From: an uncultured Candidatus Saccharibacteria bacterium
GTDB lineage: Bacteria; Patescibacteriota; Minisyncoccia; Minisyncoccales; GBS-2
NCBI GenBank assembly: GCA_964447735.1
Contig: CAYUTJ010000005.1
Span: 1 to 29,751, forward strand
Direction: 5' to 3'
Length of the DNA stretch: 29,751 nucleotides
A program made the position numbers and the translations under genes. Below are positions 11,969-19,990 of this stretch, piece by piece. The notes beneath the pieces were generated by a model that saw only the letters and a list, made by a program, of their open reading frames with translations, ran no database searches and had not been told where the DNA came from. Position 1 is the stretch's first letter, and every line of letters begins with the position of its first letter.

Positions 11969-12910
11969 ATGAAAATCAATCTCAAAAAAAATGTTCCTTT
12001 GAGAAATTATACTACATTCAAAATTGGAGGGAAAGCTCGTTATTTTTTCGTTGCAAAGAAAAAAGAAAATGTAAAAAATGCAATTGAATTTGCAAAAAAG
12101 AAAAGAATTCCCTTTTTTATTTTAGGAGGAGGTAGCAATGTTTTATTCCCTGATGAAGGCTTTAGAGGAATTGTTATAAAATTAGAAATTTTAAATTTTA
12201 AATTAGAAAACAACAAAGTTTTTGTGGGGGCTGGTTATCCATTAACAAAATTAGCTCAAAAATTAGCAAAAAAGAGCTTTTCTGGACTTGAATTTGCAGT
12301 TGGAATCCCAGGAACTATAGGAGGAGCTATTAGAGGAAATGCTGGAGCTTTTGGAAAGGAAATAAAAAATGTAGTAGATGAGGTTGAAGTATTAAAAATT
12401 GAAAATTGCAAATTGAAAATTGAAAAATTAAAAAATAAAGATTGTCAATTTGGCTACAGAGAAAGTATTTTCAAAAAAAAGAAAAATTGGATAATTTTGA
12501 AAGCTACCTTGAAAATAAAAAAAGGAAATAAAAAAAGAATTCAAGAAAAAATAAAAAAAATTTTGTCAAAAAGAATAAAAACTCAACCTCTTGAGTTTCC
12601 CTCTGCAGGATCTGTCTTTAAGAATATTCCTTTGGAAAAAGTTCCCAAGAATGTAAAGGAAAAATTTAAAGATAAAATAAAAAGAGAACCTTTCCCCTGT
12701 TTACCAGCAGCAGTTTTGATAGAAGCTTTGGGGTTGAAAGGATATCAAATTGGAGGAGCTAAAATTTCAGAAAAGCATGCCAATTTTATTATTAACGCAA
12801 AAAAAGCTAAAGCAAAAGATATCTTGCAATTAATAAGGCTGATAAAAAAGAAGGTAAGAAAAAGATTTGGAGTAAATTTAGAATTAGAAATTGAGTTAGT
12901 TAAAGTTTAA
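11969..12910 (+). CDS. murB: UDP-N-acetylenolpyruvoylglucosamine reductase
   Basis: TTFKIGG, LGGGSNVL, GIPGTIGGAIRGNAGAFG, FGYRESIF, SAGSVFKN, SEKHANFIIN and LELEI. Confidence 0.97.
   Translation: MKINLKKNVPLRNYTTFKIGGKARYFFVAKKKENVKNAIEFAKKKRIPFFILGGGSNVLFPDEGFRGIVIKLEILNFKLENNKVFVGAGYPLTKLAQKLAKKSFSGLEFAVGIPGTIGGAIRGNAGAFGKEIKNVVDEVEVLKIENCKLKIEKLKNKDCQFGYRESIFKKKKNWIILKATLKIKKGNKKRIQEKIKKILSKRIKTQPLEFPSAGSVFKNIPLEKVPKNVKEKFKDKIKREPFPCLPAAVLIEALGLKGYQIGGAKISEKHANFIINAKKAKAKDILQLIRLIKKKVRKRFGVNLELEIELVKV
12179..12206 (+). repeat. in-frame 7-bp tandem array in murB
   Basis: aaattag aaatttt aaatttt aaattag, translated as KLEILNFKLE. Confidence 0.6.
12395..12422 (+). repeat. in-frame 7-bp tandem array in murB
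   Basis: aaaattg aaaattg caaattg aaaattg, translated as KIENCKLKIE. Confidence 0.8.
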
Positions 12911-13688
12911 TTTTTCTAAAAATTATCAAAAACCCAGTATGAGCTACCATCCTATCTTTGGGACGCAATGCCCTTCCTCTTTTTTGCCATTCCCTCTGTA
13001 AAGTTTCAAAAATTCCTTCGAGTTCAAAACTTTTTTTAAATTTTTTCTCAACAATATCTACTAAATTAAATACCTGCAAAACAGTCGGTAACCAACAAGC
13101 TAAAATTCCACCTTCTTTTAAAATCTCTTTTACTTTTTGAAGATAATTCCAAGGTTCTACCATATCCAAAATCACTCTATCAAAATTTTTTTCTTTTATA
13201 TCTTCCAAATTCATCTTTTTTAGAACTAAACTTTTAATTTCTTCAGGCTTTTTTCGATAAAATTTTTCAATGTTTTCTTTTGTAGTTTTGACCATATCTT
13301 CTCTCTCATCGATTGCGAAAACTTTTCCTTTTTCTCCGACTGCTCTAACCAAATAACAAGTTAAAGCTCCAGAACCACATCCTGCTTCCAAAACTTTAAT
13401 TCCAGGAGCAATATCTGCTAAAACTAAAATTTGACCTACATCCTTTGGATAAATAATTTGAGAAATTCTCTTTAGTTTTTTTAAAATAAAATCTGCTAAA
13501 GTAGGTTTCAAAATTAAAAGTTCAGCTCCTTTAGAAGAAATTATCTTTCTCCCTATTCCTTTTTTTAAAATTTCCTCATGCAAAATCTTCCCTCTATGAA
13601 ATTCAAAAACTCCTCCTTTTTTTAACGAAATTAAATATTTTCTTTGCTTTTTATCTTTTAATAAAACCAAATCTCCTTCTTTTAACAT
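12900..13688 (-). CDS. trmI: tRNA (adenine-58-N1)-methyltransferase
   Basis: QIIYPKD, VLEAGCGSGALT, ILDMVEPW, PTVLQV and RPKDRMVAHTGFL. Confidence 0.93.
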   Translation of the reverse strand: MLKEGDLVLLKDKKQRKYLISLKKGGVFEFHRGKILHEEILKKGIGRKIISSKGAELLILKPTLADFILKKLKRISQIIYPKDVGQILVLADIAPGIKVLEAGCGSGALTCYLVRAVGEKGKVFAIDEREDMVKTTKENIEKFYRKKPEEIKSLVLKKMNLEDIKEKNFDRVILDMVEPWNYLQKVKEILKEGGILACWLPTVLQVFNLVDIVEKKFKKSFELEGIFETLQREWQKRGRALRPKDRMVAHTGFLIIFRKIKL

Positions 13689-14941
13689 TCTACGAGATAG
13701 TAATTTCTTCTTCCTTTTTTAATCACAAAATATCTTTGATACAAAGCTTCCTTTTTAGTTATCATTTTTTTGATTTCTAAAATTAATTCTCCATTGATAG
13801 AAATTCCTCTCTGCTTTATTAGTCTCTTAGCTTCGCTTTTTGATTTTACCGCTCCGCTTAAAACTAAAAGTTCTAAAACAGGAATTTCTTTTTTGATTTC
13901 TATCTTAGTTGAAGGCACATTGAAAAAAGCTTCTTTGATTTCTTCTTCCTTCAATTCTTTAACATTTCCATAAAACAAAATTTGAGAAATTTTCTCTACT
14001 CTTTTTGCTTCCTCTTTGCCATGAACGATCTTTGTCATTTCTTTAGCTAAAACTTTTTGGGCTTCTTTCTTCTTGGGTTCTTTCTTTAATTTCTTTTCTA
14101 AATCTAAAATTTCTTCTTTCTTTAAAAAAGTAAAATATTTCAAAAAAGAAATCACATCTTTGTCTTGGGTGTTAATCCAAAATTGATAAAATTTATAGGG
14201 TGAAGTTAGCTTTTTGTCCAAAAAGATTGCTCCTTCTTCTGTCTTTCCAAATTTTTTTCCAGATTTTGTCAAAATTAAAGGTAAAGTCAAACCAAAAACT
14301 TCAACTCCTAAAATCTTTCTGACCAAATCTACACCAGAGACAATATTTCCCCATTGATCAGAACCTCCAATTTGAAGAGAACAATTTTCTCTTTTCTTTA
14401 ATTCCAGAAAATCGATTGCTTGCAAAATCATGTAAGAAAATTCGCAAAAAGAAATTCCGGTACTGGATAATCTTCTTTTAACAGATTCTTTAGATAACAT
14501 TTGTGAAAGTTGAAAGTGTTTTCCGTATTCCCTTAAAAAATCAATCAAATTTAAATTTAAAAGCCACTGAGAATTGTCTAAAATTTTTGCAGAATTCTTT
14601 TTTGTTTTGAAATCTAAAAATTTCTCAAGCTGACTTTTAAGTTTATCTCGCCATTCAGCAATTTTTTCTTTAGGGTTTAAAGGTCTTTCTTTTATTTTCC
14701 CCGATGGGTCTCCAATTAAAGCTGTTCCTCCCCCAATCAAGGCAATTGGCTTGTGGCCAAAAATTTGAAATCTTCTTAAAGTTAAAATCAAAAGCAAATT
14801 TCCGACATGAAAAGAAGGAGCAGTTGGATCAAACCCACAATAAAGAGTAATTTTCTCTTTCTTTAATTTTTCTCTCAAACCTTTTTCGTTTGTTGTTTGA
14901 TAAATTAATCCTCTGAACTTTAGATCTTCAAAAATATCCAT
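13682..14941 (-). CDS. tyrS: tyrosyl-tRNA synthetase (bacterial type, with S4 domain)
   Basis: YCGFDPTAPSFHVGN, GGSDQWGNI, KFGKT, SPYKFYQFW and SKSEAKRLIKQRGI. Confidence 0.98.
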   Translation of the reverse strand: MDIFEDLKFRGLIYQTTNEKGLREKLKKEKITLYCGFDPTAPSFHVGNLLLILTLRRFQIFGHKPIALIGGGTALIGDPSGKIKERPLNPKEKIAEWRDKLKSQLEKFLDFKTKKNSAKILDNSQWLLNLNLIDFLREYGKHFQLSQMLSKESVKRRLSSTGISFCEFSYMILQAIDFLELKKRENCSLQIGGSDQWGNIVSGVDLVRKILGVEVFGLTLPLILTKSGKKFGKTEEGAIFLDKKLTSPYKFYQFWINTQDKDVISFLKYFTFLKKEEILDLEKKLKKEPKKKEAQKVLAKEMTKIVHGKEEAKRVEKISQILFYGNVKELKEEEIKEAFFNVPSTKIEIKKEIPVLELLVLSGAVKSKSEAKRLIKQRGISINGELILEIKKMITKKEALYQRYFVIKKGRRNYYLVEC

Positions 14942-14950
14942 TTTTTTATT

Positions 14951-19543: not shown

Positions 19544-19933
19544 TTATTTGAGTAAATCAGATAAGGTTATTGAATTTAATGCAGAGTTAATGATTTTGTT
19601 TAACCTTTTCCAAAAATTTTTCGCTAAACATTTTTTTTCTCTAGGACAGAAAGATCTTAAACATTCAACCAAAGGTTTCTCTCCTTCTAAAACATCAATG
19701 ATTTCTCCTATTTTTATTCTTTCTGGTTTTTTGGCTAAAAAATAACCTCCTTTTTTCCCTTTTTTTGCTTCAACTAAATTTTTCTTTTCCAGTTTTGAGA
19801 AAATCTTTTCTAAAAAATTTAAAGGAATTTTCTCTTTTTTTGAAATCTCCCTCAAAGAACAAATTTTCCCTTCTTGCTTTGCTAAATAAACCATTGCCCT
19901 CAAACCGTATTGAGTTTTTTTAGATATTTTCAT
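19544..19933 (-). CDS. Rrf2-family regulator (IscR-like, 3 Cys); real start ATG 19933, since the ORF-track TTG 19990 is the -35 box
   Basis: MKISKKTQYGLRAM, KGKKGGYFLAK, IGEIIDVLEG and CLRSFCPREKKC. Confidence 0.93.
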   Translation of the reverse strand: MKISKKTQYGLRAMVYLAKQEGKICSLREISKKEKIPLNFLEKIFSKLEKKNLVEAKKGKKGGYFLAKKPERIKIGEIIDVLEGEKPLVECLRSFCPREKKCLAKNFWKRLNKIINSALNSITLSDLLK

Positions 19934-19935
19934 AT

Positions 19936-19962
19936 TAAAACCGACCAGTTTGGTCGGTTTTA
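19936..19962. promoter_or_regulatory. perfect inverted repeat (12-bp arms, 3-nt spacer), IscR type-1-like operator
   Basis: TAAAACCGACCA-GTT-TGGTCGGTTTTA lies between the -10 box and the rrf2 ATG. Confidence 0.8.
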
Positions 19963-19990
19963 TTTTATTCTTCTTGGTAATTATTGTCAA
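19962..19990 (-). promoter_or_regulatory. sigma70 promoter TTGACA-N17-TAAAAT for the rrf2-iscS-iscU-mnmA operon
   Basis: -35 at 19990-19985 and -10 at 19967-19962. Confidence 0.85.

What the first reader, a model, noticed from the sequence alone, without database searches (positions are those of the whole stretch)
12900..19990. Fe-S-sensing regulon that bundles three Fe-S-type tRNA thiolases with their sulfur and cluster supply
Seen: one promoter/operator followed by rrf2, iscS, iscU, mnmA, ThiI-like, ttuA, tyrS and trmI, all overlapping or within 9 nt. All three thiolases have CxxC plus distal Cys ligand sets (PCVVC/EICF, PCLDC/GGC, CAVC/DPC). Established: rrf2-iscS-(iscU)-mnmA is known from Firmicutes, and C-type MnmA and TtuA use [4Fe-4S]. 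The extension to two more thiolases, a synthetase and m1A58 is not an arrangement I know. Inference: a minimal ISC system dedicated to tRNA thiolation in a reduced genome.
Basis: partly seen in the sequence, partly recalled or inferred. Interest (0 to 1): 0.68.

Follow-up and report, generated by a model that had tools for sequence, protein, structure and literature searches.

The report
Iron-sulfur and tRNA-thiolation gene cluster
A small-genome (Patescibacteria-like) bacterium from hydrothermal sediments packs a probable iron-sulfur-sensing repressor, a two-gene iron-sulfur cluster factory, three cluster-type tRNA sulfur-inserting enzymes, TyrRS and a tRNA methylase into one gene row; the core is a known operon type, and the extension is an add-on that close relatives reshuffle.

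Summary
Eight minus-strand genes (rrf2, nifS/iscS, iscU, mnmA, PP-loop+NFACT-R_2, ttuA, tyrS, trmI; 19933..12900) overlap or lie within 9 nt of each other. They follow the best sigma-70 match in 12 kb and a unique 25-bp palindrome. All three thiolases carry CxxC plus a distal Cys.

New here: the promoter and palindrome (AAAACCGAC-N7-GTCGGTTTT) are conserved before rrf2 in four related lineages. The palindrome matches the E. coli IscR type-1 consensus at 18-20 of 25 positions. The Rrf2 keeps the three IscR cluster cysteines.

- rrf2-iscS-iscU-mnmA is a known clostridial arrangement.
- The "ThiI-like" gene belongs to the ThiI+DUF814 family, predicted in 2014 and still uncharacterised. It is not a ThiI.
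- The full eight-gene order occurs only in this species. Relatives place PPN-ttuA-trmI-tyrS upstream of the operator, or without rrf2/Fe-S genes nearby, or interrupt the row with corA.
- Relatives also replace NifS/IscU with a SufC/SufBD-like pair at the same position.
- The Fe-S system is not shown to be dedicated to tRNA, because the window encodes other Fe-S proteins.

Verdict: a lineage-specific variant of a known operon type, of moderate interest. Co-transcription could not be tested.

The parts
19962..19990 (-). sigma-70-type promoter: TTGACA (19990..19985), 17-nt spacer, TAAAAT (19967..19962)
   Evidence: 11/12 match, the best in 11.5-23.5 kb. CTTGAC and TAAA.T are invariant in five aligned loci.
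19937..19961 (.). 25-bp palindromic operator AAAACCGAC-N7-GTCGGTTTT. It abuts the -10 hexamer and ends 3 nt before the rrf2 ATG.
   Evidence: Unique in the window, 0.02 expected. Conserved before rrf2 in L090, L110, L163 and L161 with a variable spacer. Matches the IscR type-1 consensus at 18-20/25, against 9.8 expected.
19544..19933 (-). Rrf2-family regulator, IscR-like, 129 aa, with a Cys91/Cys96/Cys102 triad
   Evidence: PF02082 131 bits and TIGR00738 139 bits. Best solved relative is T. potens IscR 4cic, 3e-20. The Cys triad aligns with E. coli IscR C92/C98/C104.
18373..19542 (-). NifS/IscS-type cysteine desulfurase (MisS-like), 389 aa
   Evidence: TIGR03402 FeS_nifS 564.4 bits, above the 530.75 cut-off; PF00266.
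17867..18376 (-). IscU/NifU-N scaffold (MisU-like), 169 aa with a Lys/Glu-rich tail
   Evidence: PF01592 149.9 bits. TIGR03419 NifU_clost 171.2 bits, just under the 187.9 cut-off.
16806..17900 (-). C-type MnmA (tRNA s2U34 synthase) with the CC-CxxC-C motif
   Evidence: NF001138 428 bits, above the 284 cut-off. RCCSP, PCVVC and EICF are read. The motif definition is in PMC7025502.
15880..16809 (-). PP-loop ATPase + C-terminal NFACT-R_2 (ThiI+DUF814 family, 'PPN'); predicted [4Fe-4S] tRNA thiouridine synthase, target unproven
   Evidence: PF18297 49.3 bits; ThiI and MnmA PP-loop hits are weak. Invariant SGGLDS, NPCxDC, GGC, GRxRxxQ and TxxE. AF2 model pLDDT 89; best fold match is [4Fe-4S] LarE 8cnz, then ThiI, MnmA and TtuA. 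Family prediction in PMC4075521.
14951..15883 (-). TtuA-type tRNA 2-thiouridine(54) sulfurtransferase, 310 aa
   Evidence: Full-length match to T. thermophilus TtuA 5b4e (1.8e-58) and P. horikoshii TtuA 5mko. SGGKDS, CAVC, DPC and both zinc-ribbon motifs align.
13682..14941 (-). bacterial-type tyrosyl-tRNA synthetase, 419 aa
   Evidence: TIGR00234 412.8 bits, above the 113.8 cut-off.
12900..13688 (-). TrmI, tRNA m1A58 methyltransferase, 262 aa
   Evidence: GCD14 and TrmI-like_N domains. Matches M. tuberculosis TrmI 1i9g (8.9e-52) and T. thermophilus TrmI 2pwy (4.6e-51).
19994..20185 (-). context gene: single-cluster 4Fe-4S ferredoxin directly upstream of the promoter. Not part of the eight-gene row. 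Its linkage to rrf2 is kept in relatives.
   Evidence: PF13370 57 bits. fdx lies upstream of rrf2 in L161, L110 and L163.

Best explanation
The locus is an autoregulated, IscR-type Rrf2 operon for a minimal two-gene Fe-S assembly system (NifS-type desulfurase plus IscU scaffold, 'MIS' type) and a C-type MnmA. This is the arrangement known from clostridia. In this Patescibacteria-like species it has become joined head-to-tail to a tRNA-elbow module made of the ThiI+DUF814 thiolase (PPN), TtuA, TyrRS and TrmI.

Proposed working (inferred):
1. Transcription starts at the promoter at 19990..19962.
2. When clusters are plentiful, holo-Rrf2 binds the 25-bp operator that abuts the -10 element and represses.
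3. When clusters are scarce, apo-Rrf2 leaves the operator. The desulfurase, the scaffold and the three cluster-dependent thiolases are then made together, probably as one ~7-kb mRNA with translational coupling across the ATGA-type overlaps.
4. NifS supplies sulfur for cluster assembly and probably for thiolation.
5. The [4Fe-4S] cluster of each thiolase, held by three Cys with one open Fe site, carries the sulfide that replaces the oxygen of the adenylated uridine.
6. TrmI (m1A58) helps TtuA (s2U54/s2T54) on the same T-loop.

Shown here: gene identities, motifs, junctions, and conservation of the promoter and operator.
Inferred: cluster binding by Rrf2 and by the thiolases, repression, a single transcript, and the PPN target (s4U8 is the published prediction).
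For: - Gene calls and junctions.
- Best promoter match in 12 kb and a unique palindrome.
- Promoter and operator are conserved before rrf2 in L161, L090, L110 and L163, whose Rrf2 proteins are 54-69% identical where aligned.
- L161's right half-site has two uncompensated changes that abolish the RNA hairpin (-3.2 kcal/mol), which favours a DNA operator over an RNA structure.
- 18-20 of 25 positions match the IscR type-1 consensus. The consensus string is confirmed in PMC3899308.
- The Cys triad aligns with IscR C92/C98/C104.
- The rrf2-iscS-iscU-trmU row is adjacent and co-induced in C. perfringens: PMC2940859.
- C-type MnmA motif. TtuA ligands align with solved TtuA.
- PPN has an invariant CxxC+C, and its fold is closest to [4Fe-4S] LarE.
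- m1A58 speeds TtuA sulfur transfer in Thermus: PMC6418473.
- PPN recurs next to mnmA, iscS or rrf2 in distant phyla; 9 of 46 well-flanked GTDB loci.
- Relatives keep rrf2 + Fe-S machinery + mnmA + PPN even when the machinery is swapped to SufC/SufBD.
Against: - No transcript data exist, so a single mRNA is an inference from gene spacing.
- Upstream genes are co-directional and only 60 nt away, so read-through could feed the row independently of Rrf2.
- In relatives the PPN-ttuA-trmI-tyrS block works without the operator (L090, L091, L104, L164), so it must be able to use its own promoter.
- The IscR His107 ligand is Lys here, and the IscR equivalog model scores 102 bits against a 207 cut-off. 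Cluster type and even cluster binding are therefore unproven.
- PPN has never been characterised experimentally, as far as the searched library shows.
Confidence: 0.6

Rival explanations
1. There are two units, not one. rrf2-nifS-iscU-mnmA(-PPN) is the Rrf2-controlled operon. PPN/ttuA-tyrS-trmI is an independent tRNA-maturation unit with a promoter buried in the preceding coding sequence. The two merely abut in a compact genome, so tRNA T-loop modification is not under Fe-S control.
For: The PPN-ttuA-trmI-tyrS block stands alone, or upstream of the operator, in L090, L091, L104 and L164. In L161 it is separated from PPN by corA and gaps of up to 1 kb. Several 9/12 promoter-like matches lie inside mnmA and PPN.
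Against: Internal promoter-like matches are no more frequent than in shuffled sequence (44 found against 37.2 +/- 4.9). The mnmA/PPN and PPN/ttuA junctions are 4-nt overlaps that leave no intergenic space.
Confidence: 0.2
2. The row is the tail of a much longer read-through transcription unit (nrdD-nrdG-MAT-gltS-fdx-...). The palindrome acts mainly as an intrinsic terminator or attenuator for upstream transcripts, not as a repressor site.
For: About 17 kb of co-directional genes have gaps of 13 nt or less, apart from this 60-nt gap. As RNA the palindrome folds to -16.3 kcal/mol and is followed by UUUU. The scan reports it as terminator-like on the + strand. The hairpin is strong where no separate terminator precedes it (window, L090, L110). 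It is degenerate in L161, which has a clean terminator after fdx.
Against: The palindrome lies downstream of a conserved near-consensus promoter, so transcripts from that promoter would contain only its right half. The half-sites, not the stem pairing, are what match the IscR type-1 consensus. L161 keeps the left half-site and the register although the hairpin is lost. A dual role remains possible.
Confidence: 0.12
3. The Rrf2 protein senses something other than Fe-S status: cysteine supply as CymR does, or NO/redox as NsrR or RsrR do.
For: CymR is the second-best equivalog model (90 bits) and CymR structures are close PDB hits. The clostridial homologue responds to cysteine limitation (PMC2940859). 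Rrf2 genes next to mnmA/PPN in Thermodesulfobacteriota sit with cysK and HcyBio and carry a different operator resembling a CymR box; that resemblance is from my own recall.
Against: The three Cys align with the IscR ligand cysteines in the window, L090 and L110. The solved CymR chains aligned show no cysteine opposite them. The operator matches the IscR type-1 register. The genes directly downstream are Fe-S assembly genes in every variant, either MIS or SufCB-like.
Confidence: 0.08

Closest known systems
Clostridial rrf2-iscS-iscU-trmU(mnmA) cluster (C. perfringens cpe1786-cpe1783; PMC2940859)
   Same: Same first four genes in the same order: an Rrf2 repressor, a NifS-type desulfurase, an IscU scaffold and MnmA. 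No HscAB, IscA or Fdx accompanies them. They are co-regulated as a block.
   Different: Here four more genes follow without intergenic space (PPN, TtuA, TyrRS, TrmI). The host is a Patescibacteria-like organism from vents.
E. coli IscR autoregulation through type-1 sites (consensus ATASYYGACTRWWWYAGTCRRSTAT)
   Same: A winged-helix Rrf2 protein with three cluster cysteines at equivalent positions. A 25-bp palindrome in the same YYGAC-N7-GTCRR register lies in its own promoter, overlapping the -10/+1 region.
   Different: His107 is replaced by Lys. The first Cys spacing is one residue shorter. The protein is below the IscR equivalog cut-off. Cluster type is unknown. The flanks of the site are A/T runs rather than ATA/TAT.
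Minimal Fe-S systems MIS (MisS/MisU) and SMS (SmsC/SmsB) (PMC13066941, PMC12192291)
   Same: The window has only a NifS-type desulfurase and an IscU-type scaffold, which is the MIS make-up. Relatives have a SufC plus a short SufB/D-like pair, which is the SMS make-up.
   Different: Phylogenetic placement in the MIS or SMS clades was not tested. The SufB/D-like proteins are about 307 aa and score far below the SmsB and SufB cut-offs. Exchange of the two cassettes at one Rrf2-controlled position did not turn up in the papers I read.
ThiI+DUF814 proteins of Burroughs and Aravind 2014 (PMC4075521; Pfam NFACT-R_2 PF18297)
   Same: ThiI-like PP-loop domain, CxxC plus an internal Cys, GRxRxxQ and TxxE motifs, a C-terminal DUF814/NFACT-R domain, no THUMP or rhodanese domain, and occasional IscS/IscU neighbours.
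   Different: There is no TusA neighbour here. It sits between mnmA and ttuA. Its Fe-S dependence is inferred here from ligand conservation and fold similarity to [4Fe-4S] LarE; the passages of the 2014 paper that I read describe a TusA/persulfide route and do not mention Fe-S dependence.
Thermus thermophilus T-loop network TtuA (s2T54) / TrmI (m1A58) (PMC6418473)
   Same: Orthologous TtuA and TrmI. m1A58 is a positive determinant for TtuA. The vent habitat fits a thermostabilising role.
   Different: No TtuB, TtuC or TtuD is seen in the window. The genes are physically linked here. Growth temperature and the modifications actually made are unknown.

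Membership tests
IscR-type Rrf2 regulator | Rrf2 winged-helix domain | tested here: met
   PF02082 131 bits (cut-off 30); TIGR00738 139 bits (cut-off 73.3).
IscR-type Rrf2 regulator | Three cluster-ligating Cys equivalent to C92/C98/C104 | tested here: met
   C91/C96/C102 align with the E. coli IscR cysteines and are invariant in L090 and L110.
IscR-type Rrf2 regulator | Fourth ligand His107 | tested here: not met
   Lys at the aligned position (CLAKNFW against CLTHALW).
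IscR-type Rrf2 regulator | Passes the curated IscR equivalog model | tested here: not met
   TIGR02010 102.3 bits against a 207.55 cut-off.
IscR-type Rrf2 regulator | Type-1-like palindromic site in its own promoter | tested here: met
   18-20/25 match to the consensus against 9.8 expected. Conserved in five loci next to the -10 element.
IscR-type Rrf2 regulator | Binds an Fe-S cluster and represses in the holo form | not testable with these tools
   Needs anaerobic purification, spectroscopy and EMSA.
MIS minimal Fe-S system (MisS/MisU) | NifS/IscS-type class V desulfurase next to an IscU-type scaffold | tested here: met
   TIGR03402 564 bits, above cut-off. PF01592 150 bits. TIGR03419 171 bits, just under its 187.9 cut-off.
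MIS minimal Fe-S system (MisS/MisU) | No HscA/HscB, IscA, [2Fe-2S] Fdx or CyaY in the locus | tested here: met
   None found among the ORFs of the 29.7-kb window or in L081. The rest of the genome was not seen.
MIS minimal Fe-S system (MisS/MisU) | Falls in the MisS/MisU clade in a phylogeny | not tested
   No tree was built.
C-type MnmA | CC-CxxC-C motif (PMC7025502) | tested here: met
   NRCCSP, PCVVC and EICF. MnmA equivalog 428 bits against a 284 cut-off.
C-type MnmA | [4Fe-4S]-dependent s2U34 formation | not testable with these tools
   Biochemical assay.
TtuA | PP-loop SGGKDS, CxxC plus a distal Cys, N- and C-terminal zinc fingers, full-length similarity to characterised TtuA | tested here: met
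   5b4e/5gha 1.8e-58 over residues 10-307, with all motifs aligned. The Pyrococcus-type equivalog NF049949 scores 233 bits against a 450 cut-off, so that specific model is not passed.
TtuA | TtuB-type ubiquitin-like sulfur carrier partner | tested here: inconclusive
   No TtuB/ThiS-like ORF in the window. The genome is incomplete, and from my own knowledge some characterised TtuA enzymes work without TtuB.
ThiI / TtuI (tRNA s4U8 synthase) | N-terminal ferredoxin-like and THUMP domains before the PP-loop domain | tested here: not met
   The PP-loop starts at residue 6 and there is no THUMP hit. TIGR00342 scores 28.8 bits against a 264.5 cut-off.
ThiI+DUF814 (PP-loop + NFACT-R_2) | ThiI-like PP-loop with CxxC plus an internal Cys, GRxRxxQ and TxxE, and a C-terminal DUF814/NFACT-R_2 domain | tested here: met
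   PF18297 49.3 bits (cut-off 26.9). Invariant S12-S17, C84, C87, C193, G168/R169/R171/Q174 and T150/E153.
ThiI+DUF814 (PP-loop + NFACT-R_2) | Conserved TusA neighbourhood | tested here: not met
   No TusA-like ORF in the window.
ThiI+DUF814 (PP-loop + NFACT-R_2) | s4U8 (or other) thiolation activity; mutual exclusion with THUMP-ThiI in the genome | not testable with these tools
   Only part of the genome is available. No experimental paper was found.
TrmI (tRNA m1A58 methyltransferase) | GCD14 catalytic domain plus TrmI-like N-domain; similarity to characterised TrmI | tested here: met
   PF08704 76 bits and PF14801 40 bits. 1i9g 8.9e-52, 2pwy 4.6e-51.

The most novel reading that the evidence does not exclude
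In this Patescibacteria clade an IscR-like sensor and its operator form a fixed regulatory 'socket'. Either of the two ancestral minimal Fe-S machineries (NifS/IscU 'MIS' or SufC/SufBD 'SMS-like') can be plugged into it, always together with cluster-dependent tRNA thiolases (C-type MnmA and the uncharacterised ThiI+DUF814 enzyme). tRNA thiolation capacity would then be set directly by Fe-S cluster availability. The CC loop of MnmA would be kept only when a cysteine desulfurase is the partner, which would mark it as a persulfide-receiving element. PPN would be a new [4Fe-4S] tRNA thiouridine synthase shared by transfer between Patescibacteria and DPANN-like archaea.
Probability: 0.3. Interest if true: 0.6.

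Novelty: new variant of a known kind. Interest (0 to 1): 0.38.

Why it matters
- If the row is one Rrf2-controlled transcript, it would be an unusually explicit case of a cell tying three tRNA sulfur modifications, one of them a thermostabilising T-loop mark, to its Fe-S cluster status.
- It would put the still-uncharacterised ThiI+DUF814 family in a context that argues for Fe-S-dependent tRNA thiolation.
- The MIS/SufCB-like cassette exchange behind one conserved operator gives a natural comparison for how the two minimal Fe-S systems serve the same clients. The source of sulfur and electrons for these systems is still described as open (PMC13066941).
- None of this changes the basic picture. 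The core operon, the cluster-dependent thiolases and the family prediction are all already published.

Tried and rejected
- RNA evidence: no RNA runs hold the locus, so co-transcription could not be tested.
- Internal signals: promoter-like and terminator-like hits inside the row are no more frequent than in shuffles (44 against 37.2 +/- 4.9; 7 against 7.0 +/- 2.7). They neither split nor confirm the unit.
- T-box or riboswitch before tyrS: Rfam finds none, and only a cut tRNA at the window end. The 9-nt gap leaves no room. ARAGORN finds no tRNA gene.
- Looking for the same eight-gene order elsewhere:
  - None of the 80 GTDB loci has it.
  - The 70 metagenome loci give only rearranged variants.
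  - The closest PPN homologues (70-72% identity) sit in unrelated contexts, including DPANN-like archaeal contigs.
- PPN as a true ThiI: rejected, because there is no THUMP domain and it is far below the model cut-off.
- PPN as LarE: considered, because [4Fe-4S] LarE is the best fold hit. Judged less likely because of the RNA-binding NFACT-R_2 domain and the mnmA/ttuA neighbours.
- Apparent strain break at about 15.7 kb in run X1: this was a reporting artefact. At a looser threshold a 3.3-kb contig of equal depth covers 12436..15745 with 5 differences.
- Rrf2 operators in the Thermodesulfobacteriota loci are a different motif and were not pooled.

Full report
**What is there**

The stretch 12900..19990 carries eight minus-strand genes:
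- an Rrf2 regulator (19544..19933)
- a NifS/IscS-type cysteine desulfurase (18373..19542; TIGR03402 above its cut-off)
- an IscU scaffold (17867..18376)
- MnmA (16806..17900)
- a PP-loop ATPase with a C-terminal NFACT-R_2 domain, here called PPN (15880..16809)
- TtuA (14951..15883)
- TyrRS (13682..14941)
- TrmI (12900..13688)

The junctions, in order, are a 1-nt gap, overlaps of 4, 34, 4 and 4 nt, a 9-nt gap and a 7-nt overlap. The row ends in an 11-nt convergent overlap with murB.

The reported cysteine motifs are all present. MnmA has PCVVC and EICF plus an upstream CC. PPN has NPCLDC and GGC. TtuA has CAVC and DPC plus two zinc-ribbon motifs.

Contigs assembled from two other hydrothermal-vent samples tile the whole row across every junction. 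The arrangement is therefore not an assembly chimera.

Named TyrRS relatives at 57-60% identity are Paceibacterota, Minisyncoccia and 'bacterium HR34'. GC content is about 30%. MurB and a bacterial-type TyrRS are present. The host is therefore most likely a Patescibacteria (CPR) bacterium.

**The control region**

The only real intergenic gap in about 17 kb of co-directional genes is the 60 nt between a 4Fe-4S ferredoxin gene and rrf2. It holds two elements:
- TTGACA-17-TAAAAT, scoring 11/12, the best match in 12 kb.
- Directly after the -10 element, the palindrome AAAACCGACCAAACTGGTCGGTTTT (19937..19961). This is the only CCGAC-N7-GTCGG in the window, with 0.02 expected by chance.

The same layout precedes rrf2 in four related loci (L161, L090, L110, L163). 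CTTGAC, TAAA.T and AAAACCGAC-N7-GTC.G.TTT are invariant there, while the 7-nt spacer varies.

The 25-mers match the E. coli IscR type-1 consensus at 18-20 of 25 positions in the same register, against 9.8 expected.

In L161 the right half-site has two uncompensated changes. They destroy the RNA hairpin (-3.2 kcal/mol, against -10.7 to -16.3 in the others) but keep the register. That pattern fits a protein-binding DNA site better than a selected RNA stem.

A secondary terminator role for read-through from upstream cannot be excluded. It is made a little more plausible because L161, the one locus with a degenerate palindrome, has a clean terminator after fdx.

The Rrf2 protein is closest to T. 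potens IscR among solved structures. It keeps three cysteines that align with IscR C92/C98/C104, also in L090 and L110. His107 is Lys, and the curated IscR model is not passed.

I therefore treat Fe-S sensing as likely but unproven.

**The enzymes**

MnmA has the full CC-CxxC-C signature that defines the [4Fe-4S]-dependent C-type (PMC7025502).

TtuA aligns end to end with T. thermophilus and P. horikoshii TtuA, including the cluster ligands.

TrmI matches characterised m1A58 enzymes at about 1e-51.

PPN is not a ThiI. It has no THUMP or rhodanese domain and scores 28.8 bits against a 264.5 cut-off.
- It belongs to the 'ThiI+DUF814' family, which Burroughs and Aravind predicted in 2014 to be an alternative s4U8 synthase (PMC4075521). 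I found no experimental study of it.
- The family is large: 7961 clusters scored E <= 1e-5 among the 8000 candidates scored.
- SGGLDS, NPCxDC, GGC, GRxRxxQ and TxxE are invariant.
- An AlphaFold model has pLDDT 89. It is closest to [4Fe-4S] LarE, then to ThiI, MnmA and TtuA. The CxxC aligns with that of LarE.

An Fe-S-dependent tRNA thiolase is the best reading. The target nucleoside is not established.

**Is the arrangement a conserved design?**

The first four genes are the known clostridial rrf2-iscS-iscU-trmU block, which is co-induced in C. perfringens (PMC2940859). The extension is not conserved.

Among the 80 best of at least 600 GTDB species loci that hold PPN:
- none has ttuA, tyrS or trmI within 10 kb;
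- 9 of the 46 with adequate flanks have rrf2, iscS, iscU or mnmA within 5 kb.

That second figure supports a recurrent PPN/MnmA/desulfurase link across phyla. One example is TilS-rrf2-CysK-HcyBio-NIL/Fer4-mnmA-PP-loop-PPN in Thermodesulfobacteriota.

Within the window's own clade (proteins 66-80% identical) the neighbourhood is kept but shuffled:
- L161: rrf2-SufC-SufBD-mnmA-PPN-corA-2 ORFs-ttuA-tyrS-trmI, then convergent murB
- L110 and L163: rrf2-SufC-SufBD-mnmA-PPN-tyrS, then convergent murB
- L091, L104 and L164: PPN-ttuA-trmI-tyrS, then convergent murB, with no rrf2 or Fe-S genes in the sequence fetched
- L090: PPN-ttuA-trmI-tyrS-[operator]-rrf2-nifS-iscU-mnmA
- L162: tyrS behind the ATP synthase operon

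The operator motif occurs once per locus. In L090 and the L091-type loci the two extra thiolases therefore lie outside its reach. The window's eight-gene row is found only in its own species (L081, and the 99%-identical P0002).

**What the variants do say**

Two blocks persist:
- rrf2 + Fe-S machinery + mnmA + PPN
- PPN or ttuA + trmI + tyrS, next to murB

The ttuA-trmI link has a known rationale. m1A58 accelerates TtuA sulfur transfer, and both marks stabilise the T-loop in thermophiles (PMC6418473). That fits the vent origin of the sequence.

The Fe-S machinery behind the conserved operator is either NifS/IscU or a SufC plus short SufB/D-like pair. The constant feature is therefore cluster supply next to cluster-type thiolases, not a particular sulfur donor.

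The claim of a system 'dedicated' to tRNA thiolation is not supported. The window itself encodes NrdG (radical SAM), a ferredoxin and a MinD/Fer4 ATPase. The simpler reading is a housekeeping minimal system.

**Verdict**

The best explanation (confidence about 0.6) is an IscR-type autoregulated MIS-mnmA operon that in this species has fused to a tRNA-elbow module. It is probably transcribed as one unit, so that cluster-dependent thiolases are made together with the cluster factory.

The rivals are:
- an independent downstream unit (0.2)
- dominance of upstream read-through, with the palindrome acting as a terminator (0.12)
- a sensor that does not respond to Fe-S status (0.08)

It is a new variant of a known kind, of moderate interest. 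The most useful leads are the conserved operator, the MIS/SufCB-like cassette exchange and the context it gives the uncharacterised PPN family.

Noticed in passing
L110:3367-4960, L163:6422-8015, L161:2169-3768 (position equivalent to window 17867..19542): In relatives the NifS/IscU pair behind the same operator-rrf2 is replaced by a SufC-like ATPase (199-207 bits to TIGR01978) plus a short (~307 aa) SufB/D/SmsB-like protein. This looks like a cassette exchange between the two minimal Fe-S systems at one regulated position.
   Followed up: partly
window 17700..17760 (MnmA residues ~45-60); A4 alignment: The MnmA proteins linked to NifS/IscU (window, L090) carry the 12-residue CC insert (NRCCSPEAE). 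The four linked to SufC/SufBD (L110, L163, L161, L093) lack it but keep PCVxC and EICF. The CC loop may be tied to having a desulfurase partner. The sample is small.
   Followed up: partly
L084-L086, L159, L160 (PPN at about 8001-10933): PPN proteins 70-71% identical to the window's lie on archaeal contigs (eRF1, ribosomal S8e, LSm, deoxyhypusine synthase, form III RuBisCO; 500-kb contigs). This suggests recent inter-domain transfer among small-genome organisms. eRF1 and SMC there carry inteins.
   Followed up: partly
window 19994..21389; L161:1-1197; L110:2152-2921; L163:5206-5975: A single-cluster 4Fe-4S ferredoxin stays directly upstream of the rrf2 promoter across the clade. It follows a GltS-domain FMN protein in the window and L161, and is followed by a thioredoxin/ferredoxin-thioredoxin-reductase-beta fusion in L110 and L163. 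It is a possible electron donor for the minimal Fe-S system.
   Followed up: no
window 4378..10917: Downstream lies a metal and Fe-S-flavoured neighbourhood that is also kept in relatives (L091, L163, L164): two NifX/NifB-C-like Nitro_FeMo-Co proteins, a CMD protein, a 552-aa protein with no Pfam hit (8040..9698), a MinD/ParA ATPase with a 2x4Fe-4S insert, a CDF cation-efflux protein, DUF134 and an ABC-3 metal transporter.
   Followed up: partly
window 11225..11947: A further tRNA-modification gene (TrmO, 11225..11716) and a 70-aa Cys-rich ORF with CxxC pairs and no Pfam hit (11735..11947) sit just beyond murB.
   Followed up: no
L016:2965-12118 (also L021, L025): Thermodesulfobacteriota loci read TilS-rrf2-CysK-HcyBio-NIL/Fer4-mnmA-PP-loop(271 aa)-PPN-radical SAM(BATS). 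A different conserved element (TAATTCCTATAGAAAAAGTAT) follows a TTGACAA box before rrf2. It resembles a CymR-type box, but that comparison is from memory only.
   Followed up: partly
L161:1190-1700: The fdx-rrf2 spacer in the closest relative is 575 nt. It has a clean intrinsic terminator (CCCGCC..GGCGGGTTTTTT), tandem copies of a ~45-nt repeat (ATTGATTGAGGCTCAACCTCAATCAG...) and an assembly gap of Ns.
   Followed up: no
window 29698..29751 (-): The 3' part of a tRNA gene is cut by the window end (Rfam RF00005, 34.6 bits).
   Followed up: no
window 21383..22582: The S-adenosylmethionine synthetase is of the archaeal type (PF01941). It sits between NrdG and the GltS-domain protein, in the same order as in L110 and L163.
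   Followed up: no
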